From an uncultured Pelagibacteraceae bacterium (GTDB lineage: Bacteria; Pseudomonadota; Alphaproteobacteria; Pelagibacterales; Pelagibacteraceae), in NCBI GenBank assembly GCA_902567045.1, contig CACFLJ010000007.1:512-64511 (forward strand): 64,000 nt of DNA, in the 5' to 3' direction. The position numbers and the translations under genes are program-made. Of this stretch, positions 37,231 through 59,977 are shown in pieces (position 1 is the first letter of the stretch; each line of letters starts with the position of its first letter). The notes under the pieces were generated by a model. That model had not been told where the DNA came from, ran no database searches, and saw nothing but the letters and a program-made list of their open reading frames with translations.

Positions 37231-38661
37231 ATGATTGAAAAGAAAAATTTTTATATAAATGGAAAGTGGGTTTCTCCCACTAAGCCAAATGACTTTGAAG
37301 TAATTAATCCCTCAACTGAGGAAGCTTTTGCAATAATATCTTTAGGCTCTGCTGAAGATGCAGATAAAGCAATTAATGCTGCCAAAATTGCATTTGAGAC
37401 CTGGAGAGAAACTACAAAAGAAGAAAGATTAGCTTTACTTGAAAAGTTTGATGAAATTTATAAAAGAAGATGGGACGAAATGGTAGAGGCACAGTCTAAA
37501 GAAATGGGTGCACCTCTAGATTTTGCATCAGAAACTCATACTAAAATGGGTGCTGATATTTGTAGAAATAACATTGAGATTTTAAAAGATTTTAATTTTG
37601 AACATCAATTTGATCCTAGATCTAATAATCATATAAGATATGAACCAATTGGAGTTTGTGGATTAATTACGCCATGGAATTATCCAATGAACCAAATCAT
37701 TTTAAAAGTTATTCCTGCTTTAGCTGCTGGATGTACAATGATATTAAAACCTTCTGAAATTGCTCCAGTGTCAGCAGTATTGTTTGCTGAGATGATTGAC
37801 GAAGCTGGCTTTCCTGCTGGAGTTTTTAATTTAGTGAATGGAAATGGAGAAGTTGTTGGAAATCACATGTCTGGTCATCCAGACATTGATATGATCTCAT
37901 TCACAGGATCAACAAGAGCTGGAAAACTAATTCAAAAAAATGCAGCTGATACTATAAAAAAAGTAACTCTTGAATTGGGTGGTAAAGGTGGGAATATTGT
38001 TTTCGCAGATTCATATCCTGATGCTGTTAGAGATGGTGTGAGGAATATAATGAGTAACTCAGGGCAATCATGTGATGCTCCAACAAGGATGTTGGTTGAA
38101 AAACCAATCTATGAAAGAGCAGTTAAAGAGGCTGCTGATGAGGCAAACAAAATTAAAGTTGATCTTGCATCTAAAAAAGGTGATCACATTGGACCTGTAG
38201 TTTCAAAAGTACAATACGATAAAGTTATTAATCTTATTAATGAAGGAATTAAAGAAGGTGCAACGTTAGCTGCTGGTGGACCAGATTTACCAAATGGACT
38301 TAACAAAGGTTATTTTGTTAAACCAACAATTTTTTCAGATGTAAATAATGATATGAAAATTGCAAGAACCGAAATTTTTGGACCTGTACTTTCAATTATA
38401 CCATTTGAAACTGAGGAAGAGGCAATAGCAATTACAAATGATACATCTTATGGACTTGGTAATTATCTACAAACTGAAGATAAAGAAAAAGCAAAAAGGG
38501 TTGCTAGAAAAGTAAAAGCTGGAACAGTTTATATCAATGGTCAAGCCACAGATACTGGAATGCCGTTTGGTGGTTATAAACAATCTGGTAATGGTCGTGA
38601 AGGTGGTGTCTGGGGTTTTACTGAATTTTTAGAAGTTAAAGCAATTACCGGTTGGAATTAA
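37231..38661 (+). CDS. Aldehyde dehydrogenase (paralog 2)
   Basis: ITPWNYP, FTGST, LELGGKG, GQSCDAP, EIFGPV. Confidence 0.95.
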   Translation: MIEKKNFYINGKWVSPTKPNDFEVINPSTEEAFAIISLGSAEDADKAINAAKIAFETWRETTKEERLALLEKFDEIYKRRWDEMVEAQSKEMGAPLDFASETHTKMGADICRNNIEILKDFNFEHQFDPRSNNHIRYEPIGVCGLITPWNYPMNQIILKVIPALAAGCTMILKPSEIAPVSAVLFAEMIDEAGFPAGVFNLVNGNGEVVGNHMSGHPDIDMISFTGSTRAGKLIQKNAADTIKKVTLELGGKGGNIVFADSYPDAVRDGVRNIMSNSGQSCDAPTRMLVEKPIYERAVKEAADEANKIKVDLASKKGDHIGPVVSKVQYDKVINLINEGIKEGATLAAGGPDLPNGLNKGYFVKPTIFSDVNNDMKIARTEIFGPVLSIIPFETEEEAIAITNDTSYGLGNYLQTEDKEKAKRVARKVKAGTVYINGQATDTGMPFGGYKQSGNGREGGVWGFTEFLEVKAITGWN

Positions 38662-40027: not shown

Positions 40028-40480
40028 ATGAAAACATTTATCGGCGGTATTGGCTGCTTTTGGGATGAAAAAAAGTATGAAGGTATAAAAGGTATAGTCT
40101 CAACAGAATGTGGCTACTGTGGTGGAGATGAGCCAAATGTTACATACAAAGCAGTTTGTGGTGGAGATACAGGGCATATAGAAGTGGTCAAAGTTGAATA
40201 TGATGAAAAAGAAAAGTCATATGAAGACATGGTCAATTTATTTTTTGAATTGCACGACTCAACTCAGGTAAATAGACAAGGCACATATGTTGGAATTCAG
40301 TATCGTTCTGAAATATTTTATAGCACAGAAGAGGAAAAGCTAATTGCAGAAAAAGTTTTAAACGAAGTCAACAGCAAATTAGATGGAAAAGTTTCGACTA
40401 AAGTATCAAAAGAAAAAAATTATTGTAAAGCCGAAGATTATCACCAAAAGTACGAACAAAAAAAATCATTAAAATATTGA
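40028..40480 (+). CDS. msrA: Peptide methionine sulfoxide reductase A
   Basis: GCFW, GH.E, NRQG...G.QYRS, AEDYHQKY. Confidence 0.9.
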   Translation: MKTFIGGIGCFWDEKKYEGIKGIVSTECGYCGGDEPNVTYKAVCGGDTGHIEVVKVEYDEKEKSYEDMVNLFFELHDSTQVNRQGTYVGIQYRSEIFYSTEEEKLIAEKVLNEVNSKLDGKVSTKVSKEKNYCKAEDYHQKYEQKKSLKY

Positions 40481-41640: not shown

Positions 41641-41641
41641 A

Positions 41642-44955: not shown

Positions 44956-44967
44956 TAGAATTTATTA

Positions 44968-46158
44968 TTACCTAGCTTTTTTTATAGATGCTAGAGTAAT
45001 TTCCTTTGTTTCTTCTAAAGTTGCTATTCTTGGATTTGTTGCAAAGGCCTGATCTTTCATTGATTTTTCTGCGATTCTATCAACACAATCTTCGGGCACA
45101 CCAATTTCACTTAGACTTTTTGGAATTTTAATTCTATCAAGAAGGTTTTCAATGTTTGATATAAATGCTTCTACAGAATGATCTTCAAATTGCATAGCCT
45201 CTGACATTCTTTTAACTTTTTCTTCCATGCCTGGAAGATTATATTTTAGAACTACAGGCAATATTATTGCATTGGTTAGCCCGTGATGAGTATTGTATTC
45301 AGCTCCAACCATATGAGCAATAGCATGTACTAATCCTAAACCTTTTAAAAAAGAAATTCCTGCTAAACATGATCCAACATGCATTCCACCTCTGGCAACT
45401 ATGTTGCTAGGATCTTCTACAGCTGTGACTAAAGATTTTGATATCAAAGATAAACCTTCTAAAGCAGCACCATCACACATTGGATTAAAACCAGGAACAC
45501 AATAACCTTCTATGCCATGGATTAAAGCATCTGCACCTGTCCACGCAGTTAGGTTTGCTGGCAATCCAATTGTAAGTTCTGGATCTAACAATGCTAAGGA
45601 CGGTCTAACATCTGGATGCCACATACAAAATTTCATACCTTCTTTTAAATAAGTAACCATAGCTGTGATTTCTGTTTCAGCACCAGTACCTGCAGTAGTA
45701 GGAATGGTTATAATTTTTGGAAAAGGATTATCTTTACTAATTATAGGAGGAGTTAATTCAAATTCAAAATTTCTAAGTGGTACATCATTATTTGCTGTAA
45801 GGCATATCAATTTACCACCATCCATTGCACTACCTCCGCCTATTGCAATTATAGAGTCGTGATTACCGTCTTTAAATTTTTTTACTCCATTTGAAACCTC
45901 GTCTTCTCGAGGATTTGGAGATATATCAAAAAATAAATCTGATTTTATATTTGAGCTATTTAGATAGCTTTGTAAATTTAAAATAAATGGTAATTTTGGA
46001 CTTCCTTTGTCTGTAACTATCAACGGATTTTTAATATCTAAATTATTACAGATACTTCCTATTTCTTTTAATCTACCAGGACCATAAGCAATGTTAGTAG
46101 GAAATGTCCAGTCTTGATTGGATAGAATATCAGTTTCATTAAGTTTAAAACTTTGCAT
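44968..46158 (-). CDS. Iron-containing alcohol dehydrogenase
   Basis: GGGSAMD, PTTAGTG, DALIHGIE, HAIAH, HHG. Confidence 0.92.
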   Translation of the reverse strand: MQSFKLNETDILSNQDWTFPTNIAYGPGRLKEIGSICNNLDIKNPLIVTDKGSPKLPFILNLQSYLNSSNIKSDLFFDISPNPREDEVSNGVKKFKDGNHDSIIAIGGGSAMDGGKLICLTANNDVPLRNFEFELTPPIISKDNPFPKIITIPTTAGTGAETEITAMVTYLKEGMKFCMWHPDVRPSLALLDPELTIGLPANLTAWTGADALIHGIEGYCVPGFNPMCDGAALEGLSLISKSLVTAVEDPSNIVARGGMHVGSCLAGISFLKGLGLVHAIAHMVGAEYNTHHGLTNAIILPVVLKYNLPGMEEKVKRMSEAMQFEDHSVEAFISNIENLLDRIKIPKSLSEIGVPEDCVDRIAEKSMKDQAFATNPRIATLEETKEITLASIKKAR

Positions 46159-46194
46159 ATCCTAGATAAAGTATACAATTTTAAAAAATTATAA

Positions 46195-47127
46195 ATGAAT
46201 ATTTCGTCCGAAAAAACAGATTTAAAAAATACTTATCTGGCAATAGTTACAATGCTCTTAGCAATTCTATGCGTAGACATGTATATGGTTGTAATTAAGT
46301 TTTTAGGAGATGAGTATTCGGTAATTCAGCTTGCTGTTTTTAGAAATATTGCAGGTGTTATTCCTCTTTTTATTCTAATTCTATTTACAAGAGAGTATTT
46401 CTCAATTTTCAAAAATTTAAACAACAAATTTATAATTTTAAGCTTTTTAAGAGGACTTGCTTTCTTGTCTATGAATATCTTCATATTTATTTCAGTAATT
46501 AACCTTGAATTTGCAACTGCAATGGTTCTTACATTTTCGTCACCATTTTTCATAGTAATTTTATCAATAATTTTTTTAAATGATAAAGTGGGTATTTATA
46601 GATGGTCAGCAATATTTATTGGATTTTTTGGAGTTGTTTTAATTGTTCAGCCAGGAAGCGACATATTTAGTTTTTATTCAATATTTCCAATATTAACTGC
46701 AATTGCTTGGGCTTTTACAGTTATAATTCTAAAATTTATACCTGATGGGCACTCAACGGCAAAAATACAACTTTATACTTTAATCTTTAATGTAATTGGT
46801 GGAGTAATATTATTTTTAACAACCACTGGACATACAGATATTAAAAGTACTCAAGACTTTCTGTTAATGGTATTGACTGGAATACTAGGTGGGACTGCTG
46901 CAATACTTTTCATTTATGCTTATAGATTAATTTCTGCAAGCAAGATGGCATCTTTTGAATATTTTGGTATCCCATCATCTTTTGTTTTAGGTTGGTGGTT
47001 TTTTAATGAGGCACCTTGGGAACAATTATTTCCTGGAGTTTTTGTGATTGTGTTTGCAGGAATGATAATTATTTGGAGAGATAAGGTTAAACAAAAAAGT
47101 ACTAAGGTAAGTAGAGAGATTAATTGA
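46195..47127 (+). CDS. EamA/DMT family transporter
   Basis: About 10 TM, FSSPFF, RWSAI.IGF.GV, FEY. Confidence 0.87.
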   Translation: MNISSEKTDLKNTYLAIVTMLLAILCVDMYMVVIKFLGDEYSVIQLAVFRNIAGVIPLFILILFTREYFSIFKNLNNKFIILSFLRGLAFLSMNIFIFISVINLEFATAMVLTFSSPFFIVILSIIFLNDKVGIYRWSAIFIGFFGVVLIVQPGSDIFSFYSIFPILTAIAWAFTVIILKFIPDGHSTAKIQLYTLIFNVIGGVILFLTTTGHTDIKSTQDFLLMVLTGILGGTAAILFIYAYRLISASKMASFEYFGIPSSFVLGWWFFNEAPWEQLFPGVFVIVFAGMIIIWRDKVKQKSTKVSREIN

Positions 47128-48166
47128 CAGACTTCATTGACTTCATAACTATTGCTCTATCAATTTCACCAATCAATTTTCCTGTTTGTGTATCTACAAC
47201 TGGAAATTTCTGATCCGTATCAACTAGTTTATCAATCAATGTCTCAATTTTTGAGTCATGTGGAATATTATTAGATCCATTCTCAAACAATTTTTTTGTA
47301 TCATCACAACACTCTTCTCTCATTACCTTGCTTGCACTTAATACTTTATATTTTGGAACATCTTCACAGAAATCTTTTACATATTGATCTTTAGGATTTG
47401 CAACAATTTCCTCTGGAGTACCAACTTGTGAAACCTCTCCATCTTTCATAATAGCAATATGATCTCCCATCTTTATGGCTTCTAAGAAATCGTGCGTAAT
47501 AAAAACCATTGTCTTTTGAAGTTTTTCTTGAATTTTTAACAATTCATCCTGCATTTCTCTTCTAATTAGTGGGTCAAGTGCAGAAAAAGGTTCATCAAAA
47601 ATTAATATTTCTGGATCAACTGCAAGTGCCCTTGCTAGTCCAACTCTTTGTTGCATACCACCAGAAAGTTCTCTTGGATAATTATTGTGCCAACCTTCCA
47701 AGCCTACCATTTTTAAAACCTCCATTGATTTTTCTATTCGATCATTTTTTTTGTTACCTCTAATCTCTAATCCATAACCAATATTTTCAACCACTGTTCT
47801 ATGTGGGAATAATCCAAAGTGTTGGAAAACCATACTCATTTTATTTCTTCTTAAATCTAAAAGATCTCTTCCATTCATTTTTGTTACATCAACATCATCC
47901 ATTTTAACCGTACCAGAAGTTGGCTCAATTAATCTTGATATACATCTAACTAAAGTTGATTTTCCACTTCCAGATAAACCCATTACAACGAATGTCTCAC
48001 CTTTCTCAATTGAAAAGCTTACATCTTTAACGGCAACAACATGTCCAGTTTTTTCTTGGACTTCTTTTATTGATAAATTTTTATCTAAACCTTTAATAAT
48101 TCTTTTTTCGTCTGGGCCAAATAATTTCCAAACATTAGTACAAGTTATTTTTGCTTGATTACTCAT
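47120..48166 (-). CDS. ProV/OpuAA-like quaternary-amine ABC ATPase (copy 1)
   Basis: [43 protein letters not shown]. Confidence 0.92.
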
Positions 48167-48247
48167 ATTTTGTTATTTTAATAACATAAAAATAGACAAT
48201 ATTTTCCTTTAAAAGTAAAATAATTTATTTTAAAATTTTAATTAATT

Positions 48248-50365
48248 ATGTCATCCGAAGTCTCAAGTATCCAAGGTAAACCAATTTCATCTAAGAATAT
48301 AATTACATATTCTTTAATTCTATTAACTTTTTTAGTTGCTTTATGGTTATCCTTTCAAAGTGAGGGTCCTTCAAAAATGCCGAAAGTTGTAACTGATCAA
48401 TTTACATTTACAGCATGGGTTAATGAAGGCGAAGATTACTTAAAGAAAAATTATAGATGGATTACGAAAATAATAGCTAGTTATATTAAAAATATTTATT
48501 ATTTTGTTGAAGACTTTCTTCTCGATTCTCCATGGCTTTTAATTGCAGCATTAATATTTTTACCTTGTTTAATTGCAGGTGGCCTAAGATTGGGTCTGTA
48601 TTCTTTATTCGTAATTTATTTTTGGGGTGCAACTGGTATGTGGGAACCATCTCTTCAAACCGTAGCATTGATGGGTTTATCTGTACTAATGTGTGTAGTT
48701 GTGGGTGTAACCTTAGGCGTTATGTGCTCTCAAAGTGATCGATTTGAAAATTTTATGAAACCTATTTTAGATACAATGCAAGTGATGCCGGCTTTTGTTT
48801 ATCTTTTTCCCGCTTTATTCTTTTTTGGTATTGGAGGAGCGCCTGCAATATTAGCTACTATGATTTATTCCATGCCCCCAATAATTAGACTGACAAATAC
48901 AGGAATTAGACAAGTTTCGGCGGAGACAATAGAGTCTGCAACGTCATTTGGCTCAAGTAAATTACAACTTTTGTTTAAAATTAAAATTCCACTTTCTTTA
49001 CCAAGTATAATGATGGGTATTAACCAAGTTATAATGATGGCTTTAGCACTTGTGGTTCTTGCATGTTTTATCGGAGCTGAAGGAATTGGTGGTCAAGTGT
49101 GGCAAGCAATTCGAAGACTTGATGTCGGATGGGCAATGGAAGGAGGACTTTGTATTCTTTTTATGGCAATAATGTTTGACAGATTTAGTATGTCTTTCAG
49201 TAAAACAGAGCAGTCTCTACCTTCTAATGTTCAAAGATTTTATTTACTCCCTCAATCTTGGGAAAAATATTTAATTGCAAGACTTATAGAAAAACCTTTA
49301 GAATTTTTAAGTGGATTAACAAATTTTGTCTGTATTAATTTAACGAGATCAATTGCTTATGTATTTGAATTTTGTATTTCATTATCAAATAAAAATACTG
49401 CAAGAGAAATAGGTGAAGCTATAACAAGAAGATATTATATCATACCTTCGTTTATACTTATTCTGGCAATTTCTTTCATTGACTCTTACATGATTAGTAT
49501 AGGATCTTTTCCTGAAGAATGGAGATTGTCAATTAGACAACCAATTTCTAGCGCTGTAGATTCTTTAACAGTAAATCCTGGCTTTATAGCATTTACTAAA
49601 GCTCTAAGAGGATTTGTTTATCTTAAGCTTTTACGCCCACTTGATATTTTCTTAACTCATGTGCCATGGTGGTACACACTAGGTGTATTTTCTGCGATTG
49701 GATATTTCACTGTTGGTATAAGATTTGCAATTATCACTGCTTTGTTATTACTATTTATCGGTGCTTGCGGGATATGGCCTCAATCAATGATAACACTATC
49801 ATCTGTTTTAGTGTCTGTAGCTTTATGTTTTATCATTGGAGTTCCTCTCGGAATAATTGCTTCTTACAATGAAAGATTTAGAAATATTCAAAATGTGGTT
49901 TTAGATGCTATGCAAACATTGCCTTACTTCTGTTATTTAATTCCTGTGTTAATGTTTTTTGGAGGAGGTGTTGTTTCAGCTATATTAGCAACAGTTATAT
50001 ACTCCATACCACCTATTATTAGATTAACTTCTTTAGGCTTAACTCAAGTATCTGGAACCTACTCAGAGGTTTCACGTTCATTTGGTGGTACTTTATTGCA
50101 AACTTTAAACAAAATTAAATTCCCATTAGCGGTACCAAGTTTAGTGATTGGATTTAATCAAACAGTAATTATGGCTTTCGCTATGCAAATTGTTACACCA
50201 TTGATTGGTGGAAAGGGACTAGGTTTAGAAGTATTTAACGGATTGGCTAGATCAGATACAGGCAGAGGTTTGGCCGCAGGCATAGGAATTGTATTATTAG
50301 CAATAATTATAGACAGAATTTCACTTGCATGGACTAAAAAACAGAGAGAAGCTCTAGGTTTATAA
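48248..50365 (+). CDS. ProW-like ABC permease with two fused permease domains
   Basis: Duplicated motifs LDTMQVMPAFVYL / LDAMQTLPYFCYL, PPIIRLT twice, GINQ / GFNQ, DR twice. Confidence 0.9.
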   Translation: MSSEVSSIQGKPISSKNIITYSLILLTFLVALWLSFQSEGPSKMPKVVTDQFTFTAWVNEGEDYLKKNYRWITKIIASYIKNIYYFVEDFLLDSPWLLIAALIFLPCLIAGGLRLGLYSLFVIYFWGATGMWEPSLQTVALMGLSVLMCVVVGVTLGVMCSQSDRFENFMKPILDTMQVMPAFVYLFPALFFFGIGGAPAILATMIYSMPPIIRLTNTGIRQVSAETIESATSFGSSKLQLLFKIKIPLSLPSIMMGINQVIMMALALVVLACFIGAEGIGGQVWQAIRRLDVGWAMEGGLCILFMAIMFDRFSMSFSKTEQSLPSNVQRFYLLPQSWEKYLIARLIEKPLEFLSGLTNFVCINLTRSIAYVFEFCISLSNKNTAREIGEAITRRYYIIPSFILILAISFIDSYMISIGSFPEEWRLSIRQPISSAVDSLTVNPGFIAFTKALRGFVYLKLLRPLDIFLTHVPWWYTLGVFSAIGYFTVGIRFAIITALLLLFIGACGIWPQSMITLSSVLVSVALCFIIGVPLGIIASYNERFRNIQNVVLDAMQTLPYFCYLIPVLMFFGGGVVSAILATVIYSIPPIIRLTSLGLTQVSGTYSEVSRSFGGTLLQTLNKIKFPLAVPSLVIGFNQTVIMAFAMQIVTPLIGGKGLGLEVFNGLARSDTGRGLAAGIGIVLLAIIIDRISLAWTKKQREALGL

Positions 50366-50454
50366 GTCAAGTAAAAGCATCATTATTCACAGTTTACAAA
50401 CTGGTATTTTTTGTTTTAAAATAAGTCTTTAATTAATTAAAAGAGAGGAAATAA

Positions 50455-51465
50455 ATGAGGTTATCAAAAACAATATCAGCTCTATTTTTATCTTTCGTAA
50501 TTTTATTTGCTAGTCTTACTCAGGCAAATGCAAAAAGATTACATGCTGCTATTGCTGACTGGACAGGTGGAATTATTACCTGTGAAGTTGCAGTAGGAAT
50601 TCTTGAAAGAGAAATGGGCTATAAAATTAAACAAACAGTATTCCCTTCAGGAACAGGATTATGGGAAGCAATTGCTGCTGGTGAACTTGATTTTGCTTGT
50701 GAAAGCTGGCCAAGTTATGCAGAAGCAGATGACGTTATGTTTAATGAAGATTTAATTTATGATGGTAAAGTTGTAAAATCATATAAGGGTGATGGAACAG
50801 TTGATCTTTTAGGCACAACTGGAATTATCGGTATGTCTGATTACTGGATCCCAAGATATGCAGCTGAAAAATTTGGAATTAAATCTTGGAGAGATTTAAA
50901 CAAACATAAAAAAGAGTTTGCTACTATTGAAACAGGCGGCAAAGGAAGATTAATTGGATGTCCTGTAGCTGGTTGGAACTGTCATGACCAAAAAAGATTA
51001 GATCTTTTAGGAATTGACTTTCAAGCAGATGAGCTAGGAACAGAGGCTGCTGCTGTTGCAGAAGCTAAAGCTGCTTACATGAGAAAAGAGCCATTCTTAT
51101 TATACCTATGGTCACCACACTGGTTCTTTGGTGAGTTTGATATGGTAGGAGTAGGTCTTCCTGACTACAAAACTTGTGCAGGAGATACATTTACTGAAGC
51201 AAATAACTGGAAGACTTGTGGTACAGACGGATGGCCAGCAACTGGTTGGGATAAAGATTACACTATGAACTACGGAAATCCTGATACATTTGCAAAACCA
51301 GAACATGCTAAAGCAAAAGCTTTTTTTGAAAGAATGAAGTTAGACAACTTAGACCAAGCTAAGATGCTTGTTGAAGTTGATATCAAAAAAAGAGATGTAA
51401 AAGAAGTTGTAAATGAGTGGTTAGACAACAATCCAGATAAATGGAAAAGTTGGTTACCTAACTAA
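50455..51465 (+). CDS. ProX/OpuAC-like quaternary-amine solute-binding protein
   Basis: Signal peptide, GKGRLIGCP..GW.C, YLWSPHW, C-terminal WL..N...W..W; SD GAGG. Confidence 0.87.
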   Translation: MRLSKTISALFLSFVILFASLTQANAKRLHAAIADWTGGIITCEVAVGILEREMGYKIKQTVFPSGTGLWEAIAAGELDFACESWPSYAEADDVMFNEDLIYDGKVVKSYKGDGTVDLLGTTGIIGMSDYWIPRYAAEKFGIKSWRDLNKHKKEFATIETGGKGRLIGCPVAGWNCHDQKRLDLLGIDFQADELGTEAAAVAEAKAAYMRKEPFLLYLWSPHWFFGEFDMVGVGLPDYKTCAGDTFTEANNWKTCGTDGWPATGWDKDYTMNYGNPDTFAKPEHAKAKAFFERMKLDNLDQAKMLVEVDIKKRDVKEVVNEWLDNNPDKWKSWLPN

Positions 51466-51606: not shown

Positions 51607-52740
51607 TTAAAATTTATATTGTTTTAGATATTCTAATCTGCCAATTATCTCATCTCTATCTAAATAATAGCCTTGAAGATGACGATGACCTGAATTTGGA
51701 TCAAAAGCTGTTCTGCCATGCAAAACACGTCTATTATTAAAAGAAAATATGTCTCCTGGTCCTAGTCGGAATTTAATTTGAAATTTGTCATCATGTAAAA
51801 GATTGCCAAATCTGTGATGAGCTTTATAAACTTGGTGCATTTTGTCAGGATGACAGTCTAGAGCATCCATTGTTGCTACACTAAACCTAATATCATGAAA
51901 ATCTTTATCTTTTGTTAAACTAATTGCTGGGGCGTGAAAGCTTCGGTGAGATTCTTGAGTATAATCTTTATCTCTAAACTTTAGTGGCACAGAGATTAAT
52001 GTTTCAAAAATTTCTTTTTCATTTTTCCTCAAATAATCAGCAACAGCAAAGCCATCTATTGCAGAGGAGTCTCCACCCTTTGCATCATTTACCAAACAGT
52101 GTAAAAACTGATAACCGGGTGGTAATTCAAACCAAGGTAAATCCATGTGGTTTCTTAATGCATGAGCTGTGTAAGCGGAATTATTTGGTTTTGGAATATT
52201 GATTACTTCAAAGGGGGTTTTAAAAAAGGTTTCCCTTACATGACTTATTCTATGAAGAATTTCAAAACCTGATTTTTTTTCTGTTGGTGAATTTTTAACT
52301 ATTGCTATACCTTTGTGGTGCAATAGCTCTAACCATTTTATCAGTCCTTCATCAGAGTCTATCACTTCATCGTGCTCAATACATATAGATTCAAAATCTT
52401 TTTCTAAGTTATTATCCCAAAGTTGATATGGTGAAACATATTCTTGTTTATTTTTAATAGTATAACAATTATCTCTCAACCACTTAGGATCATAATAACT
52501 TGTGTGGTCACCCTCACTCCACTCTATTTCTAATTTGCCATCGCCATTTAAAGAATATTTTTTGGGATTTATTTCTTTTGATACCTCTAAGATGTTAAAC
52601 ATTCTATGTCTTGAATCTTTATCATGTGCTGTAGGACAATTGTCTCTTAACCACATGTAATTAAATTTACTTTCTTCACCATCATTCCAAGTAATTTGTA
52701 AATAAGTGCTGTTTTTTGCGATTTTAGAAATCGAATTCAT
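51607..52740 (-). CDS. Gamma-butyrobetaine dioxygenase-like Fe/2OG enzyme
   Basis: N-terminal DUF971 WLRDNC, AYT...L..HMD (HxD), FLHCL, FNNRRVLHGR, RHLQGYY. Confidence 0.85.
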   Translation of the reverse strand: MNSISKIAKNSTYLQITWNDGEESKFNYMWLRDNCPTAHDKDSRHRMFNILEVSKEINPKKYSLNGDGKLEIEWSEGDHTSYYDPKWLRDNCYTIKNKQEYVSPYQLWDNNLEKDFESICIEHDEVIDSDEGLIKWLELLHHKGIAIVKNSPTEKKSGFEILHRISHVRETFFKTPFEVINIPKPNNSAYTAHALRNHMDLPWFELPPGYQFLHCLVNDAKGGDSSAIDGFAVADYLRKNEKEIFETLISVPLKFRDKDYTQESHRSFHAPAISLTKDKDFHDIRFSVATMDALDCHPDKMHQVYKAHHRFGNLLHDDKFQIKFRLGPGDIFSFNNRRVLHGRTAFDPNSGHRHLQGYYLDRDEIIGRLEYLKQYKF

Positions 52741-52854: not shown

Positions 52855-53880
52855 ATGTCTAAAATCGAAATCAATAACGTATACAAAATTTTTGGACCAA
52901 AACCTGATAGCGTTCTTAAAATGGTGCAAGAAGGAGCTACAAAAGAAGATGTTCTAGAAAAAACTGGACATACAGTTGGATTAGATAATGTATCCTTAAA
53001 AATTGAAGAAGGAGAAACATTTGTTTGCATGGGTTTGTCTGGATCAGGAAAATCAACACTAATTAGACATTTAAATAGATTAATAGACCCAACCTCTGGA
53101 GAAATTTTAGTAGAAGGCAAAGATGTTACCACTCTAAACAAAGAACAATTAATTGAATTTAGACGACAGAAAATGAGTATGGTATTTCAACGATTTGGAC
53201 TATTCCCACACAAAACAGTTTTACAAAATGTTGGGTATGGACTCGAGATGCAAGGTATGGAGATTGAAAAAAGAAATTCTGTTGCAATGGAAAAAATTGA
53301 GTCTGTCGGATTGACTGGATTTGAAAATCAATATCCTGCACAACTTTCTGGAGGTATGCAACAGCGAGTAGGTCTTGCAAGAGCTCTAGCTACTGACACA
53401 GATATTATGTTAATGGATGAAGCTTTTTCTGCATTAGATCCTTTAATTAGAAGTGATATGCAAAAACAACTAATAGACCTCCAATCAGAATTAAAAAAAA
53501 CAATAGTATTTATTACTCATGATCTTGATGAGTCATTAAGGTTAGGAGATCATATTGGAATTTTGAATGCAGGAAAACTAGTTCAAGTTGGAACACCTGT
53601 AGAAATTATAATGAACCCTGCTGATGAATACGTTGAGGCATTTGTTAAAGACGTAAATAGAACTAAGGTTATTAAAGCAAAGATTATCATGAAACCAGTA
53701 AATCAATCAGATGATATTGACAAATCAAACTTGATAAAAGTAGAAGAAGATCAATTTATAGAGGAATTTTTACCTCAAGTTGTTTGTAGTAACTCTAATT
53801 GTGAAGTAGTTGATAAACAAGGAAATGCTAAAGGCTATATTTCTAATAAAGAATTGCAAGAATCACTTTCAAACTCATAA
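52855..53880 (+). CDS. ProV/OpuAA-like quaternary-amine ABC ATPase (copy 2)
   Basis: [36 protein letters not shown]. Confidence 0.92.
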   Translation: MSKIEINNVYKIFGPKPDSVLKMVQEGATKEDVLEKTGHTVGLDNVSLKIEEGETFVCMGLSGSGKSTLIRHLNRLIDPTSGEILVEGKDVTTLNKEQLIEFRRQKMSMVFQRFGLFPHKTVLQNVGYGLEMQGMEIEKRNSVAMEKIESVGLTGFENQYPAQLSGGMQQRVGLARALATDTDIMLMDEAFSALDPLIRSDMQKQLIDLQSELKKTIVFITHDLDESLRLGDHIGILNAGKLVQVGTPVEIIMNPADEYVEAFVKDVNRTKVIKAKIIMKPVNQSDDIDKSNLIKVEEDQFIEEFLPQVVCSNSNCEVVDKQGNAKGYISNKELQESLSNS

Positions 53881-53895: not shown

Positions 53896-54747
53896 ATGAA
53901 AAAAAGTTTAAGTAACATCGTTGATTTAGTTAAATATCCAATTCATGATTTACAATCACCAAAGATCAAGAAAATAATTGAAAAATGTAAAACTGAATTA
54001 GATAGCGATAGCTGTTCGGTAATTCCTAATTTTATTTTACCAAATTCTTTAAATGTAATGAAAAAAGAATTAGAGCAACAGCTTAATGAAGTTTATATGT
54101 CTAAGGAAAGTATAAACGCATATCTTTATGCAAAAGACGATCCTGCTCTTCCCAAAGATCACCCAAAAAGAATATTTATGGATAGATTTAATGGATATTT
54201 AAATTCTGATTGTTTTGCAAAAAATTCGGAGATGAAATTTCTTTATGAAACTGAGGAATTATTAAAATTTGTATCTGCATGCTTAGGTATTGCACCTATA
54301 TATAGATGGGCTGATCCTTTAGCCTGTCATGCATATAATGTTATGGAACCTAATGGAATATTGCCTTGGCATTTTGATAGTTGTGAATTTACTTTGAGTT
54401 TAATGATTCAGAAACCTGAAAAAGGAGGAATATTTGAATATTGCCCTAACATAAGAGAACCAGGTAACGAAAAATTTGATGAGGTGAAGAAAGTACTTGA
54501 TGGAGATCGATCAAGAGTAAAAAGACTTGAGCTAGAACCTGGTGATTTACAAATATTTAAAGGTAGATTTACTATGCATAGAGTAACTAAAGTTATAGGA
54601 AAAACATCGCGATTTATGTGTATACCTGCCTATGTATTGGATCCATGGAGAGTAAACACACCTGAACACTCAAAAGCAATTTACGGAAAAGTATTGCCCA
54701 TACATTTAGAAAGAAATAAAGTTAGATCCGATGGATTAACAGATTAA
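53896..54747 (+). CDS. Fe/2OG oxygenase of BesD/HalD-like fold, hydroxylase type
   Basis: PWHFD (HxD), GGIFEY, GDLQIFKGRFTMHRVT (distal His), downstream R; layout resembles free-amino-acid halogenase/hydroxylase family. Confidence 0.65.
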   Translation: MKKSLSNIVDLVKYPIHDLQSPKIKKIIEKCKTELDSDSCSVIPNFILPNSLNVMKKELEQQLNEVYMSKESINAYLYAKDDPALPKDHPKRIFMDRFNGYLNSDCFAKNSEMKFLYETEELLKFVSACLGIAPIYRWADPLACHAYNVMEPNGILPWHFDSCEFTLSLMIQKPEKGGIFEYCPNIREPGNEKFDEVKKVLDGDRSRVKRLELEPGDLQIFKGRFTMHRVTKVIGKTSRFMCIPAYVLDPWRVNTPEHSKAIYGKVLPIHLERNKVRSDGLTD

Positions 54748-55532
54748 TGTCATACAATTTCAAAAACAAAAAAATTATTATATCAGCTGGAGCATCAGGT
54801 ATTGGATGGGCAACGGCAAAAGAGTGTCTTGAAAAAGGTGCAAGGGTATTCGTTTGTGACGTTGATAAAAAATCTATAAATAAATTAAAAAAAAATCCTT
54901 TAAATAATAAAAGATTGTTTTCTTTTCATTGCGATGCCTCAAATGAAAACGATGTTATAGACTTCTTTAAAGAAATTAAAAAAAAAACACAAAAGATTGA
55001 TGCACTAATTAATAATGTTGGGGTTGCAGGCCCAACAGGAACTATGGACAAACTTAAAACAAAAGATTGGGAACAAACTTTAAAGATAAATGTAATTAGT
55101 CATTTTATTTTTTCAAAATTAGCAATCCCGATGTTAAAAAAAAATAAAGGTGGCTCAATAGTTAATTTATCCTCTACAGCAGGTATATTTGGATTTCCAT
55201 TAAGGTCTCCTTACTCAGCAAGTAAATGGGCGGTAGTTGGAATGACAAAAACTTTAGCAATGGAATTAGGAAAGTTTAAAATTAGAGTAAACGCAATTTG
55301 TCCAGGAACTGTAAAAGGAGATAGAATGGGAAGAGTTATTAGAGACAAAGCTAAATTTTTAAAAATTTCAAAAAAAGCAGTGGAGAGTGAATTTGTTTCT
55401 ATGACTTCTCTTAATACCTGGGTTTACGAAAAAGATATTGGTAAAATGTGTTGCTATTTAATTTCTGACGAGTCTTCTAGAATTTCTGGTCAAGTAGTTG
55501 GTGTTGATGGGAACACTTTAAGAATGCATTAG
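54747..55532 (+). CDS. Short-chain dehydrogenase/reductase
   Basis: AGASGIG, NNVG, S, YSASK, NAICPG. Confidence 0.92.
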   Translation: MSYNFKNKKIIISAGASGIGWATAKECLEKGARVFVCDVDKKSINKLKKNPLNNKRLFSFHCDASNENDVIDFFKEIKKKTQKIDALINNVGVAGPTGTMDKLKTKDWEQTLKINVISHFIFSKLAIPMLKKNKGGSIVNLSSTAGIFGFPLRSPYSASKWAVVGMTKTLAMELGKFKIRVNAICPGTVKGDRMGRVIRDKAKFLKISKKAVESEFVSMTSLNTWVYEKDIGKMCCYLISDESSRISGQVVGVDGNTLRMH

Positions 55533-55536: not shown

Positions 55537-56307
55537 TTAGATATTTTCAATAAATTCTATTAAGTTATTTGCTATTTGCTCAGGAGCCTCTATCAAAAAA
55601 GAGTGTTTAACATCTGGTATAATCACTAATTTAGAATCTTTTATCTCATTTGACATTTTTTTGTTATGGAAAGGAGTGCATCCACCATCATTTTCTCCTG
55701 TCATAAATAGACAGGGTTTCTTTATATCTTTTAACCAAGAAATCATCTCAGTTTCTGCATAAATTTTAAAAACATTAATAAACACATCTTTATCAGTATC
55801 TATTACCTGTTTTAATCGTCTAGATACTAGATCTGGATTTCTTTCTATAAACTTATCTGTGAACCATCTGTTAGTCAGATTTTTTAATGTTTGTTCAACT
55901 CCCTTATTTTTTAGATCTGAAATGACACTCCATACTTTTTGTTTATCTTCATCAGATCTTCCTGCAACTGTTGATAATAAACCTACCGACAAAACTCTTT
56001 CAGGAAACTTTTTAGCATAAGCAGGAGCAATCATGCCCCCTAAAGAATGTCCCATAAAATGGGCTTTTTGGATGTTTGTCTTTTCTCTTACTCTTTCAAG
56101 ATCTAATACAAGATCATCTAAATTAAAATCTTTATTATCTACAGGTGATTTTCCGTGACCTCTTAAATCATATGTCACAACTGTAAACATGCTTTTAAGT
56201 TTTGGAGTAATAAATCTCCATGCATCTTCAGCACCTCCAACTCCATGAGTTAAAAATATTGCAGGCCCTGATCCTGTGACTGAGTAATTGCAATCTATGA
56301 TGCTCAT
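55537..56307 (-). CDS. Alpha/beta hydrolase (PcaD/TgnD-like)
   Basis: HGVG, YDLRGHG, GHSLGG, GEND, KH triad, RWF. Confidence 0.9.
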   Translation of the reverse strand: MSIIDCNYSVTGSGPAIFLTHGVGGAEDAWRFITPKLKSMFTVVTYDLRGHGKSPVDNKDFNLDDLVLDLERVREKTNIQKAHFMGHSLGGMIAPAYAKKFPERVLSVGLLSTVAGRSDEDKQKVWSVISDLKNKGVEQTLKNLTNRWFTDKFIERNPDLVSRRLKQVIDTDKDVFINVFKIYAETEMISWLKDIKKPCLFMTGENDGGCTPFHNKKMSNEIKDSKLVIIPDVKHSFLIEAPEQIANNLIEFIENI

Positions 56308-56313
56308 AGATAT

Positions 56314-57348
56314 TTAAGCTACTTGTATATTAGATTTTTTGAAATATGGGATTACGTTTTCACCAATTCTATACATTGACTCTATTAGGTCTTCTTGTGA
56401 TTGTCCAAAACTTGAACTAAGAATTACCTCATCAACTCCTGCTTCAGCATAAACGCTAAGTTTATCGATCATTTCATTTAAAGGACAAATTAAAAGATTT
56501 TCTTTTAATTCTTCTAAAGTTTGTTTTCTTGGCAAAGCTTCAATATTTCCCTCTTTTACTTTTCCTGGTCCTGTAAACATATTATCAAATCTTTTATAAT
56601 ATTCGTAAGCAAGTTTTGTTTTTTCTTTAGCTTCATTTTCATCTTTTGCTAGATAAGCCATTCTTTGCATTGAAAGTTTGAGTAACTTGCCATTTTCACC
56701 TAACTGAGCGCAACCTTCTTTAAATGCATTAACTCTACTTAATAAAAGATCTTTTGTTCCTGATAATACTGTTGATTGAACGTGAAATCCTCTTGAAGCT
56801 GCATCTTTTATACTTTCTAAATTCATTGCGGCAACCATCATTGGTATTGGATTGCTTATGGGTCGAGGCATTATAGTTAATGGCTCGAAGTCATAGTATT
56901 TGCCTTTATACGAAACTTCTTTATTTTTTAATAACAATTGTAGAACCTCTAAAGATTCTACAAATTTTTCTTTTGATTGTTCTATTGGGGTACCTAGTCT
57001 TTTCATTTCCCATGGAAATGCTCCTCTTCCTACACCTAAGATTAATCTTCCATCAGTTAAAATATCGGCAGTAGCTACTTCACCAGCATATGTTCTCATA
57101 TCGTGTAGAGGCAAAACAACTATCCCTGTTGTTATTTTAATATTTTTTGTAACTGATGCAATCTTTACAGCCATCTGCAATGGTGATGGCATCATTAGTA
57201 AGTTAATTAAATGATGCTCTGGTATTGATACCGTTGCATAACCAAGTTTTTCAGCAGTTACACATTCCTCAAGCATATTTTTAAAATGCTGCCTTGAACC
57301 AATGCTTGTATCTGGCATGTAACTTGTTAAAAAATGATTAAAATCCAT
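56314..57348 (-). CDS. Luciferase-like flavin-dependent monooxygenase (LLM)
   Basis: EHH, PSPL, D.LTDGRL.LGVGRG. Confidence 0.9.
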   Translation of the reverse strand: MDFNHFLTSYMPDTSIGSRQHFKNMLEECVTAEKLGYATVSIPEHHLINLLMMPSPLQMAVKIASVTKNIKITTGIVVLPLHDMRTYAGEVATADILTDGRLILGVGRGAFPWEMKRLGTPIEQSKEKFVESLEVLQLLLKNKEVSYKGKYYDFEPLTIMPRPISNPIPMMVAAMNLESIKDAASRGFHVQSTVLSGTKDLLLSRVNAFKEGCAQLGENGKLLKLSMQRMAYLAKDENEAKEKTKLAYEYYKRFDNMFTGPGKVKEGNIEALPRKQTLEELKENLLICPLNEMIDKLSVYAEAGVDEVILSSSFGQSQEDLIESMYRIGENVIPYFKKSNIQVA

Positions 57349-57384: not shown

Positions 57385-58329
57385 CTATTTTCTAATTTTA
57401 TTTTCATATTTTTTTCTAAGGTCTTGTAAGTTGACTAAATACTCATCTCTTATATTTGCTAATTGATTGATTGATTTTCCTTTTGCTTGTTTTTTTGTAC
57501 CAGAAATCAATCTTTCTGAGAGTTTTTTTGATAATTTTGGTGCTTTAAGCTTGGTCCATGGGAGTTTTAATGCGGGCCCAAATTGTTCAAGCATATGCTT
57601 CATTCCGGCTTTTCCTCCTGCTAAATGAAAAGTTAAGAATGTTCCCATTAATGAGTATCTTAAGCCTGGACCGTCCTCAATAGCTCTATCTAAATCCTCT
57701 GTTGAGGCATACCCTTCATTTATAATATGAAGTGCTTCTCTCCATAAAGCTTCTTGCAGTCTATCAGATAGATATCCTGGCAGCTCCTTTTTAAGGGTAA
57801 TTGGGTTCATGGAGATTGATTTATAAAATTTATTTGCTTCATTTAATGATTTAGAACTTGTTTTTTTTCCTGGGACTATTTCAACTAAAGGTAGTAAATA
57901 AACAGGATTAAATGGATGGGCAATGATACCTCTTTTATTATTTTTACATTTTAAAAAAATTCTTGAGGGCAATAATCCTGACGAGCTAGAAGATATCAAG
58001 ACCTCAGGTTTACAATAATTTGAAATTTGACTTATTAATTGAGTTTTAAGTTTATAGTTTTCAGGAGCACATTCTTGGATTAGATCCGCATCTTTAACAG
58101 CACTCTCTAAAGAAGAAAAAAAATTTAAATTATTTAAGTTTATTTTTTTTTTATTAAATAGTTTTTTAACAAATGGTATGGCTCTTTTTATTTCTTGGAT
58201 TAAGTTTTTTCTTTGAATTAAATTTTTATCGTATGCTAAAACTTTTATGTTGTGAGCCAAGAGTCTTATTGTCCACCCTACTCCAATTACTCCTGTGCCA
58301 ATTACTGCAACTTTTTTAATTTTGGACAT
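57385..58329 (-). CDS. lcdH: L-carnitine dehydrogenase (3-hydroxyacyl-CoA DH family)
   Basis: GTGVIG..W, HPFNPVYLLPLVE, DRLQEALWREALH, GPGLR, LAGG.AGM.HML.QFGPALKLPWTKL; next to BKACE. Confidence 0.85.
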   Translation of the reverse strand: MSKIKKVAVIGTGVIGVGWTIRLLAHNIKVLAYDKNLIQRKNLIQEIKRAIPFVKKLFNKKKINLNNLNFFSSLESAVKDADLIQECAPENYKLKTQLISQISNYCKPEVLISSSSSGLLPSRIFLKCKNNKRGIIAHPFNPVYLLPLVEIVPGKKTSSKSLNEANKFYKSISMNPITLKKELPGYLSDRLQEALWREALHIINEGYASTEDLDRAIEDGPGLRYSLMGTFLTFHLAGGKAGMKHMLEQFGPALKLPWTKLKAPKLSKKLSERLISGTKKQAKGKSINQLANIRDEYLVNLQDLRKKYENKIRK

Positions 58330-59216
58330 TACTTGTGTTTAACAAGCTTTAATTTTTTCCTTGTTTCTTCTGCAGTCATTATTGATGCACCAAGATCTGT
58401 TACAATTCTGATTGCTTTTTCAACTAACTGAGCATTGGTTGCAAGTTTACCTTTTGATATATACAAATTATCTTCTAAACCAACTCTTGGGTTTCCACCC
58501 ATAACAACTGTTTGTGCCACAAAAGGCATTTCATTTTTTGATATTGCAAAGCCTGACCACACTCCTTGTTCTGGCATTATATCTTTCATTGCTTGCATTG
58601 CTAAGGGAGTAGCTGGAGCTCCCCAAGGAATACCTAAACACATTTGAAACATTGGAGGATCATCTAACAAACCTTCTTTGTATAGTTGAGAGCCAAACCA
58701 CATATTCCCTAAATCGAATGCTTCTATCTCTGGTTTTACTTTAATTTCTTGTAATTTTTTTGCAGCTTTTCTTAAATCATTTGGAGTATTGACTGTAATT
58801 ACCGATCCATCACCAAAGTTTAATGTTCCAGCATCTAATGTACAAATTTCTGGTAAGAATTGTTCAGCATTAGCAATTCTTTCCATAACATTTGCCATGT
58901 CAGTCATGGGACCAAAGTCTAAAGGGTTTTTTCCTTGTCCAATGTCCAAATCACCGCCCATTCCTGTTGTTAAATTTAAAATGACATCTGTTTCACTTGA
59001 TCTAATTCTATCTACCACTTCTTTATATAATTCTAATCTTCTACTTGGTGTTCCGTCCTCTTCTCTAACATGAATGTGTGCAATTGCTGCTCCAGCTTTT
59101 GCTGCCTCTATTGCTGATTTGGCTATTTGTTCTGGAGTTTTTGGTAAGTCAGGGTGTTTGCTTGCAGTATCGCCTGACCCTGTTACAGCACATGATACAA
59201 AAACGTTGTTGTTCAT
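58329..59216 (-). CDS. BKACE beta-keto acid cleavage enzyme, probable 3-dehydrocarnitine cleavage enzyme (CdhC-like)
   Basis: CAVTG.G, HIHVR, NLTTGMGGD, PEICTLD.G, RVGLEDN; coupled to lcdH. Confidence 0.85.
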   Translation of the reverse strand: MNNNVFVSCAVTGSGDTASKHPDLPKTPEQIAKSAIEAAKAGAAIAHIHVREEDGTPSRRLELYKEVVDRIRSSETDVILNLTTGMGGDLDIGQGKNPLDFGPMTDMANVMERIANAEQFLPEICTLDAGTLNFGDGSVITVNTPNDLRKAAKKLQEIKVKPEIEAFDLGNMWFGSQLYKEGLLDDPPMFQMCLGIPWGAPATPLAMQAMKDIMPEQGVWSGFAISKNEMPFVAQTVVMGGNPRVGLEDNLYISKGKLATNAQLVEKAIRIVTDLGASIMTAEETRKKLKLVKHK

Positions 59217-59245: not shown

Positions 59246-59977
59246 ATGCAAATGGAAATATCAGAATTACAGAAGGATTTAGCTGCAACTTTTAGATGGA
59301 CGGCTAGACTTAATATGCATGAGGGAGTTGCAAACCATTTTAGTGCATGCATACCAGGTACATCTGATTTTTACTGCAATAAAGCAGGTATTCATTTTAG
59401 TAGAATTAAGGCTAGTGATCTAATCTTAGTAACTAAGGATAACAAAGAAGAGCTAAAGAATAAGCCAGACGTTATTGATCCGACAGCCTTGTATATCCAT
59501 GGTGCAATTCACGAAAAAGCTCCACACGCAAGATGTATTTTTCATGTCCATTCTAAATATGCAACAGCCCTTTCTACTCTAAAAGACCCAGTCTTAAAAC
59601 CAATAGATCAAAATACAATGATGTTTTATAATAGAGTATCTACATATACTGAATTTGGAGGTTTAGGTCTTGAAGACGAGTCCATAAAAATGGCAAATTC
59701 CCTTGGGAATAAACAGCACATGTTACTCGCAAATCATGGAATTTTAACAACAGGAGAAACTGTTGCTGAAGGTTTTAATTCACTTTATTATTTTGAAAGA
59801 GCGGCACAAACATATCTTACAGCTCTTTCAACTAACCAAGAACTTAATGTGGTCAGCCATGAAGTTGCAGAGAAAACTGCAGAAGAACATGCAAACTTTC
59901 CAACTGATTTTGCAAATCTATTCCTATCTCAAATAAGATTAATTTTAGATAAAGAAGAACCTGATTACAAAAATTAA
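59246..59977 (+). CDS. Class II aldolase/adducin family protein
   Basis: EGVANHFS, IHGAIH, HVHS, LANHG metal His triad. Confidence 0.88.
   Translation: MQMEISELQKDLAATFRWTARLNMHEGVANHFSACIPGTSDFYCNKAGIHFSRIKASDLILVTKDNKEELKNKPDVIDPTALYIHGAIHEKAPHARCIFHVHSKYATALSTLKDPVLKPIDQNTMMFYNRVSTYTEFGGLGLEDESIKMANSLGNKQHMLLANHGILTTGETVAEGFNSLYYFERAAQTYLTALSTNQELNVVSHEVAEKTAEEHANFPTDFANLFLSQIRLILDKEEPDYKN

What the first reader, a model, noticed from the sequence alone, without database searches (positions are those of the whole stretch)
53896..54747. BesD/HalD-fold hydroxylase in a betaine-transport operon: possible trimethyllysine/betaine hydroxylase
Seen: HxD...H facial triad (WHFD, MHRVT), co-transcribed between a ProV-like ATPase and an SDR. 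Known: BesD-family enzymes act on free lysine/ornithine-type amino acids, with HxG indicating a halogenase and HxD a hydroxylase; eukaryotic carnitine synthesis runs trimethyllysine -> hydroxylase -> aldolase -> aldehyde dehydrogenase -> BBOX. Inference: with the class II aldolase, the ALDHs and BBOX in this window, it could start a bacterial trimethyllysine or long-chain betaine catabolic route built from non-homologous enzymes. The family assignment is from memory of motifs.
Basis: partly seen in the sequence, partly recalled or inferred. Interest (0 to 1): 0.72.

Follow-up and report, generated by a model that had tools for sequence, protein, structure and literature searches.

The report
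SAR11 BesD-fold osmolyte hydroxylase, relocated
This gene of a SAR11 ocean bacterium encodes a BesD/HalD-fold protein with an intact iron-binding site that likely hydroxylates a small betaine- or DMSP-like osmolyte rather than trimethyllysine, and it likely reached this carnitine-gene island from a gene block it shares with a DddP-like enzyme, which points to an untested route for consuming marine osmolytes.

Summary
The ORF, the H159/D161/H228 triad and the BesD/HalD fold are confirmed (Pfam HalD above cut-off; top structure matches HalD/HalB/BesD). It looks like a hydroxylase: all 187 family rows have HxD. The trimethyllysine route is not supported. BesD's three amine-binding acids appear lost. 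The window's class II aldolase-like gene was found in only 8 of 31 SAR11 genomes with this paralog, and directly follows it in 1 of 106 loci. The ProV-hydroxylase-SDR run is likely the remnant of a longer operon. In 29 of those 31 genomes the gene lies away from this island. All 24 genomes with the close (80% or more) form also carry a DddP-like M24 enzyme, and DddP-like genes lie within 6 kb of family members in 11 of 59 non-SAR11 alphaproteobacterial loci. A sister paralog travels with another aldolase-fold gene (15 of 15 genomes). Best reading: chain hydroxylation of a short onium carboxylate, possibly at C2, feeding the DddP-like block. The substrate is untested. The scan noted this family before on other SAR11 DNA and rejected the same trimethyllysine pairing.

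The parts
53896..54747 (+). BesD/HalD-fold Fe(II)/2-oxoglutarate oxygenase, 283 aa, SAR11 'type I' paralog; predicted hydroxylase
54370..54378 (+). H159-x-D161, first two iron ligands (HxD, hydroxylase type)
   Evidence: aligns with BesD/HalB HxG and Hydrox HxD
54577..54579 (+). H228, third iron ligand
54610..54612 (+). R239, predicted 2-oxoglutarate-binding arginine (BesD R218 in 6NIE numbering)
   Evidence: 181 of 187 rows
54184..54186 (+). R97, predicted substrate-carboxylate anchor (BesD R77 in 6NIE numbering, HalB R83)
   Evidence: 117 of 119 close homologs, 65 of 187 family rows
52855..53880 (+). ProV-family ABC ATPase, without its permease and binding protein in this unit
   Evidence: fuller operons L223, L262 carry ProX and ProW ahead of it
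54747..55532 (+). Short-chain dehydrogenase; a core gene of the island, also present where the hydroxylase is missing
   Evidence: L276
51607..52740 (-). BBOX-like dioxygenase, divergent from the unit; below the BBOX, TmpA and TMLD cut-offs
57385..59216 (-). Carnitine-dehydrogenase-like gene (57385-58329) and BKACE beta-keto acid cleavage gene (58329-59216) of the published island
59246..59977 (+). Class II aldolase-fold protein (PRK07490 family), NovR/TqaM-like; not a fixed partner of the hydroxylase
37231..38661 (+). Aldehyde dehydrogenase that belongs to the island by gene order in relatives, separated here by a 39-51 kb insert
   Evidence: L257; L271, L272, L276

Best explanation
The gene encodes a BesD/HalD-fold protein with an intact His-Asp-His iron site that likely acts as an Fe(II)/2-oxoglutarate hydroxylase, likely on a chain carbon of a short methylated onium carboxylate (a betaine- or DMSP-like osmolyte with no free alpha-amino group), and its product would likely pass to the DddP-like M24 enzyme and demethylating enzymes that this genome keeps on another contig. 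Shown: fold, triad, gene neighbourhoods, presence patterns. Inferred in order of falling confidence: hydroxylase and not halogenase (about 0.9); onium-carboxylate substrate (about 0.6); hand-over to the DddP-like block (about 0.4); hydroxylation at C2 to give a 2-hydroxy acid (about 0.2-0.25, the single position I favour). R97 would hold the carboxylate and conserved aromatics (Y76, Y263) might cage the onium group. The position between ProV and the SDR is likely historical: a longer operon (ProX-ProW-ProV-type I-type II-dehydrogenase-aldolase-fold-FrhB-like-SDR) lost most members, and the genome's usual site for the gene is empty.
For: Fold and triad. Second-sphere positions match the hydroxylase Hydrox (N149, V223 per PMC13244439 passage) as S168 and I243. 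Amine-binding acids of BesD lost, carboxylate arginine kept. All 24 genomes with the 80%-or-more form carry the DddP-like gene, out of 25 that have it; it is directly upstream in G402 and G411. DddP-like genes lie within about 6 kb of family members in 11 of 59 non-SAR11 alphaproteobacterial loci and 12 of 44 non-SAR11 metagenome loci. The DddP-like protein keeps DddP's metal-site motifs and the aspartate that is changed in structure 4S01. The binding protein found ahead of this ProV in L223 keeps 6 of 8 pocket residues of the DMSP-binding DmpX. Partners of the sister paralog handle 2-hydroxy acids: TqaM-like aldolase fold, D-2-hydroxyacid dehydrogenase, mandelate-racemase-family enolase, Ldh_2. 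Empty home site in this genome: 11 bases between the flanking ORFs on C3, likewise in G494.
Against: No activity data. Within SAR11 the DddP-like gene cannot be singled out: a dimethylglycine-dehydrogenase-like gene has almost the same spread (24 genomes), so this is one co-inherited block among kin. Seven genomes with a 74-76% form have no DddP-family match with my query, and two of them (G486, G506) also gave no match for BBOX-like, CdhA-like or window-type aldolase genes. 48 of 59 non-SAR11 alphaproteobacterial loci have no DddP-like neighbour. Characterised BesD-family enzymes with the same arginine anchor attack C4 or C5, not C2. The 2-hydroxy-acid partners belong to the 53-58% paralog, not to this gene. 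Residue mapping rests on a profile alignment at 12-17% identity; I could not inspect model coordinates, so the aromatic cage is unverified. A carnitine-dehydrogenase-like (3-hydroxy) gene follows the gene in 9 of 106 loci.
Confidence: 0.35

Rival explanations
1. The substrate is another small nitrogen compound (an imino acid such as a proline or pipecolate derivative, an ectoine-like amidine, or an N-methyl amino acid), hydroxylated before hydrolysis or ring opening by the M24-fold partner.
For: M24-fold enzymes include amidine and amide hydrolases; the DddP-like proteins score 286-430 bits against the DddP cut-off of 600. Relatives sit beside cis- or trans-3-hydroxyproline-dehydratase-like genes (L118 333.9 of 500; L116 459.9 of 550) and peptide-type (SBP5) importers.
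Against: SAR11 neighbourhoods are dominated by onium-handling genes (ProXWV, BHMT-like, carnitine genes); the operon's former binding protein keeps an onium cage.
Confidence: 0.25
2. The enzyme hydroxylates the carbon next to the onium atom (C4/C5 position or an N/S-methyl), so the product falls apart to TMA or DMS plus a semialdehyde, or to formaldehyde plus the demethylated compound.
For: The kept arginine anchor with BesD geometry puts position 4 or 5 at the iron. Semialdehyde-reductase-family (HIBADH) and GFA-like genes recur nearby. The home block holds other demethylating enzymes and a Rieske oxygenase.
Against: Does not explain the recurring DddP-like and TqaM-like partners; the block already has demethylases.
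Confidence: 0.15
3. It is a non-homologous BBOX: 3-hydroxylation of gamma-butyrobetaine, delta-valerobetaine or a sulfonium analogue, feeding carnitine dehydrogenase and BKACE.
For: Here and in 68 of 106 loci the gene follows the island's ProV; a CdhA-like gene follows it in 9 of 106. A C5 substrate would be shortened to a beta-onium propionate, which DddP-like enzymes could cleave (inference).
Against: CdhA-like and BKACE genes were found in only 13 of 31 genomes with this paralog and in 12 genomes without it. The published 17-gene island lists no such gene. A BBOX-like gene is already present in 29 of 31. The 106 loci are biased to close relatives.
Confidence: 0.13
4. It is a trimethyllysine hydroxylase that opens a bacterial copy of the carnitine route through the class II aldolase, an ALDH and BBOX.
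For: The characterised family acts on lysine and ornithine. BBOX-like genes in 29 of 31 genomes. L115, L227 and L269 place a relative beside a window-type aldolase. Conserved D140 and E164 could replace the lost acids.
Against: Amine-binding acids lost. Window-type aldolase in 8 of 31 genomes, adjacent in 1 of 106 loci. The aldolase-fold protein resembles decarboxylases. No aminotransferase or PLP aldolase family was hit among the window proteins scanned. BesD-type C4/C5 hydroxylation does not give the 3-hydroxy intermediate (recalled).
Confidence: 0.07

Closest known systems
BesD / HalA / HalB / HalD radical amino-acid halogenases (PDB 6NIE, 9OER, 7U6I, 7U6H; Pfam PF23169)
   Same: Fold (TM 0.62-0.66; Z 22.4), two His ligands, 2OG arginine, substrate-carboxylate arginine.
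   Different: HxD instead of HxG; 12-17% identity; amine-binding acids and the carboxylate His not kept; longer C-terminal tail ending R-x-D-x-x-x-D; catabolic rather than biosynthetic context.
Hydrox, the lysine hydroxylase homolog of BesD (PDB 7JSD, 9OET)
   Same: HxD...H triad; polar residue and aliphatic residue at the two second-sphere positions that separate Hydrox from halogenases.
   Different: 12-13% identity; lysine amine contacts not kept; separate large clade (1,576 clusters at 50% identity with E up to 0.001).
Trimethyllysine dioxygenase (TMLD) and gamma-butyrobetaine dioxygenase (BBOX)
   Same: Fe/2OG chemistry; probably an onium substrate.
   Different: Different family: no NCBIfam hit at E 0.001, including TIGR02409 and TIGR02410.
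Arctic SAR11 carnitine/betaine island (PMC12421898)
   Same: The window holds the island's HADH, ALDH, BBOX, ABC ATPase, SDR, CDH, BKACE, class II aldolase, thioesterase, second dioxygenase and choline dehydrogenase.
   Different: The paper's 17-gene list has no HalD-like gene (zero hits for HalD, BesD, arpA in its supplement); this version lacks the island's permease and binding protein and adds this gene, an LLM monooxygenase and a hydrolase.
TqaL/TqaF/TqaM route (fungal 2-aminoisobutyrate synthesis; PMC13351049 section on TqaM)
   Same: [quoted passage not shown]
   Different: Only E about 1e-17 to 1e-19; those residues are common across adducin-like proteins; the pairing here holds for the sister paralog, not for this gene.

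Membership tests
BesD/HalD structural family (PF23169) | Pfam HalD score above the gathering cut-off | tested here: met
   42.5 bits against 26
BesD/HalD structural family (PF23169) | Fold nearest to BesD/HalB/HalD among solved structures | tested here: met
   profile search ranks 8 BesD-family chains first, E 3e-16 to 8e-11
Fe(II)/2OG hydroxylases | HxD/E...H triad plus 2OG-binding arginine | tested here: met
   H159, D161, H228, R239
Fe(II)/2OG hydroxylases | Substrate-coupled succinate formation with a hydroxylated product | not testable with these tools
   needs an enzyme assay
BesD-type halogenases | HxG/A motif that frees a site for chloride | tested here: not met
   HxD in 187 of 187 rows
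BesD-type free amino-acid (lysine/ornithine) oxygenases | Substrate-carboxylate arginine (BesD R77 in 6NIE numbering, HalB R83) | tested here: met
   R97
BesD-type free amino-acid (lysine/ornithine) oxygenases | Amine-binding acids D143 and E123 and carboxylate-binding H137 (6NIE numbering) | tested here: not met
   map to S162, L142/A143 and L156; sequence-profile mapping only
BesD-type free amino-acid (lysine/ornithine) oxygenases | Lid contacts D239 and W241 (6NIE numbering) | tested here: inconclusive
   lid alignment is low-confidence
TMLD / BBOX | Match to TIGR02410 or TIGR02409 | tested here: not met
   0 NCBIfam families at E 0.001
Eukaryote-like trimethyllysine route | Hydroxylase inherited with its aldolase | tested here: not met
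   8 of 31 genomes; adjacent in 1 of 106 loci
Arctic SAR11 carnitine/betaine island | Gene is part of the island's conserved set | tested here: not met
   absent from the 17-gene list and from L276; beside the island in 2 of 31 genomes
DddP DMSP lyase (partner gene on contig C3) | NF043017 score of 600 or more | tested here: not met
   348.7 bits for the L057 ortholog, 80% identical to this genome's copy

The most novel reading that the evidence does not exclude
This clade hydroxylates DMSP or beta-alanine betaine at C2. The DddP-like partner then eliminates DMS or trimethylamine from the 2-hydroxy compound to give pyruvate instead of acrylate, while the sister paralog's TqaM-like partner decarboxylates it to dimethylsulfonioacetate or glycine betaine. 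That would be a third, oxygen-dependent entry into DMSP/betaine catabolism in SAR11 and other marine bacteria, and would explain the many DddP-like genes that fall below the DddP cut-off.
Probability: 0.12. Interest if true: 0.85.

Novelty: new variant of a known kind. Interest (0 to 1): 0.48.

Why it matters
The BesD/HalD enzymes met in the papers and structures seen here act on free amino acids in biosynthesis. This clade is large, marine and apparently catabolic: a match was found in 35 of 141 Pelagibacteraceae genomes and 52 of 401 alphaproteobacterial genomes searched. If it opens an unknown route for an abundant osmolyte, it changes the account of how SAR11 obtains carbon, glycine and methyl groups and possibly of DMS or TMA release. 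The two modules defined here (type I with the DddP-like block, type II with an aldolase-fold decarboxylase) give a short substrate list and specific two-enzyme assays. The score is moderate because the substrate is unproven, the island is published and the scan has met this family before.

Tried and rejected
Single-sequence PDB search found nothing significant (best E 0.45); the profile was needed. NCBIfam gave no family. I recalled the DMSHB decarboxylase DsyD as a class II aldolase; PMC11306096 passages show PF04115, so that link was dropped. A maximum-likelihood tree timed out; the FastTree version has SH-like support only and a composition warning for SAR11 rows, so it serves for grouping only. 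Promoter scan: 21 sites against 25.4 expected, uninformative; no terminator-like site between ProV and the SDR end. RNA contigs cannot rank expression or prove an operon. Searches of BesD papers with native residue numbers returned nothing; the contacts came from a passage in 6NIE numbering. The family of G266 held only 2 genomes. A control for the DddP pairing failed to isolate it: the DMGDH-like gene has the same spread, the methyltransferase a wider one (40 genomes). Fisher p values ignore kinship and are not used as evidence. My count of the window-type aldolase misses a third aldolase-fold paralog that sits with the BBOX-like gene in 4 of 5 CdhA-less genomes examined. No complex prediction was run: enzyme-to-enzyme binding is not claimed. 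Ten literature searches listed no paper characterising this clade; the library lacks most subscription papers, and I did not open bioRxiv supplements or those of the other papers, so this is not proof that nothing is in print.

Full report
Observation. The ORF at 53896-54747 (+) is real, 283 aa, 15 bp after a ProV-family ATPase and overlapping an SDR start by one base. H159, D161 and H228 are invariant in a 119-sequence alignment; in 187 family rows HxD is universal and R239 is kept in 181. Pfam HalD passes its cut-off. The AlphaFold model (pLDDT 95.9) matches HalD, HalB, BesD, HalA and Hydrox first by Foldseek and HalB at Z 22.4, well above the next fold at 17.2, by VIA-align. A profile search of the PDB ranks eight BesD-family chains first. 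The organism is SAR11: the best 80 of 345 related stretches in the genome collection are Pelagibacterales records at 82-100% identity.

Active site. A passage of PMC13244439 (6NIE numbering) lists BesD's lysine contacts: amines with D239, D143, E123; carboxylate with R77, H137, W241; R218 for succinate. A passage of PMC10041140 names HalB Arg83. Reading these onto the profile alignment, R77 is R97 here, H137 is L156, D143 is S162, E123 is L142 or A143; the lid is too poorly aligned to judge. These residues are fixed in 117-119 of 119 close homologs. The Hydrox positions N149 and V223 map to S168 and I243, the hydroxylase pattern. So the enzyme likely binds a carboxylate but not a lysine-like pair of primary amines. 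This is inference from alignment at 12-17% identity; conserved D140 and E164 could compensate, and I could not view coordinates.

The local operon. The surrounding genes match the published Arctic SAR11 carnitine/betaine island (PMC12421898; passages; supplement search), whose 17-gene list has no HalD-like gene; L276 shows that form. Metagenome loci L223 and L262 show a fuller unit: ProX, ProW, ProV, this gene (84%, 80%), a second paralog, a dehydrogenase, an aldolase-fold gene, an FrhB-like gene and the SDR. The window's ProV-hydroxylase-SDR run is best read as a deletion remnant of such a unit. The binding protein of L223 has DmpX (7YLE) as best solved match and keeps 6 of its 8 pocket residues (residues from PMC10030565 passages), which fits an onium carboxylate but is not specific for DMSP.

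Where the gene usually lives. In one sample of 141 Pelagibacteraceae genomes (85% complete or more), 35 have a match: 24 with a form 80% or more identical, 7 with 74-76% (together type I), 15 with a 53-58% paralog (type II; 11 genomes have both types). In 29 of the 31 type I genomes the gene is away from the island by coordinates; in the 12 such sites inspected, 10 have it after a small kinase and nucleotidyltransferase pair in the region of a Rieske oxygenase and demethylation genes, and 2 directly after the DddP-like gene. This genome has that region on contig C3 with the slot empty (11 bases between flanking ORFs), as does G494, the other genome with the island copy. One function at two alternative addresses is the simplest reading. 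Among 106 type I loci (biased to close relatives) the upstream gene is ProV in 68, the nucleotidyltransferase in 33, DddP-like in 3; downstream SDR 55, enoyl-CoA hydratase 20, type II 13, CdhA-like 9, FrhB-like 7, window-type aldolase 1.

Partners. In the same genomes the DddP-like gene was found in 25, including all 24 with the close form; the 25th has it cut at a contig end. The window-type aldolase was found in 15 genomes, 8 of the 31 type I (one of the other 7 is the unpublished G521); CdhA-like and BKACE in 25, 13 of 31; BBOX-like in 42, 29 of 31. Type II and a different aldolase-fold gene (31% identical to the window's) occur in the same 15 genomes. Against my reading: a DMGDH-like gene shows the same spread as the DddP-like gene, kin are not independent, and the seven 74-76% genomes gave no DddP-family match. 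Independent support comes from outside SAR11: DddP-like genes lie within about 6 kb in 11 of 59 alphaproteobacterial loci (60 of the 71 matches were fetched; one was SAR11) and 12 of 44 non-SAR11 metagenome loci, some of them short or closely related; aldolase-fold genes in 25 of those 44. The DddP-like proteins score below the DddP cut-off but keep its metal-site motifs.

What the partners suggest. The type II module holds an aldolase-fold protein nearer to NovR and TqaM than to bacterial fuculose aldolases, a HIBADH-family dehydrogenase, a D-2-hydroxyacid dehydrogenase, an enolase-superfamily protein and an FrhB-like protein, with glycine-cleavage genes next to it in lower-GC non-SAR11 loci. 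TqaM oxidatively decarboxylates alpha-hydroxy-beta-amino acids (PMC13351049, section on TqaM), and its H74 and Q166 positions are kept, though these are common in the family. This points to a 2-hydroxy acid product for type II and, by homology, perhaps for type I. A 2-hydroxy beta-onium propionate could be split by a DddP-like lyase to pyruvate plus DMS or TMA; that step is my inference, and SAR11's need for pyruvate and DddP's elimination mechanism are recalled. BesD geometry argues instead for attack at C4 or C5, so position is open.

Trimethyllysine keeps its alpha-amine, whose contacts look lost; the eukaryotic route uses 3-hydroxylation and a PLP aldolase (recalled), and neither fits; the window's aldolase-like gene does not track with this gene. 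Aldolase-fold genes pair more often with the BBOX-like gene (L115, L227, L271-L273, L275). I give the route 0.07.

Expression. Four seawater RNA runs from three studies hold contigs across the gene, some bridging both junctions. This is weak: contigs only, no silent control.

Literature seen. Passages: PMC10041140, PMC13244439, PMC12421898 (45, supplement search 50), PMC11306096, 10.1101/2023.05.25.542349, PMC10030565, PMC9321204 (beta-alanine betaine, butyrobetaine and gonyol occur in marine communities), PMC11973848 (precedent for a lysine hydroxylase plus dehydrogenase pair), PMC12478193. PMC13351049: passages and one section. 10.1101/2023.05.02.539147: a term search with no hits. PMC11773067: search listing only. 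Ten searches listed no characterisation of this clade.

Verdict. A real, conserved, uncharacterised catabolic variant of the BesD/HalD family. Fold and hydroxylase type stand; the trimethyllysine pathway does not; the gene's informative partners are elsewhere in the genome. Earlier notes of this scan on other SAR11 DNA reached similar conclusions and one noted a DddP-like pairing; they are not independent evidence. Interest 0.48.

Noticed in passing
window 51607-52740 and 59246-59977; L115, L227, L271-L273, L275: BBOX-like genes are repeatedly adjacent to a class II aldolase-fold gene, and different aldolase paralogs fill that role (a third type lacks the usual His at window position 31). A possible two-step route: C2-hydroxylation, then decarboxylation to glycine betaine, recalling TmpA/TmpB logic (recalled).
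   Followed up: partly
L118, L177-L183; G389, G418, G525 and others: The type II module (hydroxylase, HIBADH-like, aldolase-fold, FrhB-like) sits at varied sites, twice in G525, with the aldolase-fold protein 98-100% identical in 14 of 15 genomes: likely recent horizontal spread.
   Followed up: partly
window 52855-53880 and 47120-51465; L271-L275: The ProV ATPase is kept without a permease or binding protein in many genomes. The nearby ProW is a 705-aa double permease with a second, divergent ProV; the orphan ATPase may serve it or another transporter.
   Followed up: no
window 26597-27763: DMSP demethylase DmdA above the NCBIfam cut-off (533 against 410 bits).
   Followed up: no
window 28906-35344: PotABCD-type importer with an ectoine-hydrolase-like M24 gene (446 of 613 bits) and an arylmalonate-decarboxylase-like gene, a conserved flank of the island.
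   Followed up: no
window 39096-51465: A 12-kb stretch between the island's ALDH and BBOX-like genes with two homocysteine S-methyltransferase-family genes, MsrA, a beta-lactamase-fold gene, an amidase and an iron alcohol dehydrogenase; absent from L271, L272, L276.
   Followed up: no
window 55537-57348: A luciferase-like monooxygenase and an alpha/beta hydrolase between the SDR and CdhA-like genes, not in the published island's list.
   Followed up: no
L198, L200-L205, L207: Lower-GC non-SAR11 type II loci insert a sulfotransferase and an arylmalonate-decarboxylase-like gene, some with an APS-kinase-like gene; SAR11 home sites carry a mini APS kinase and nucleotidyltransferase just upstream of type I. 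Sulfation may be part of the pathway.
   Followed up: no
L171:10702-11139 (G000:C3): A 146-aa SET-domain protein directly upstream of the DddP-like gene in this genome.
   Followed up: no
G103 and G340; L214: Two alphaproteobacterial genomes carry six HalD-like genes each; L214 has two divergent copies beside a DddP-like gene, an enolase-superfamily gene and what looks by eye like a BCCT transporter.
   Followed up: no
L185:7518-9970 (G525): Two DddP-like paralogs in tandem (42% identical) in the home block.
   Followed up: no
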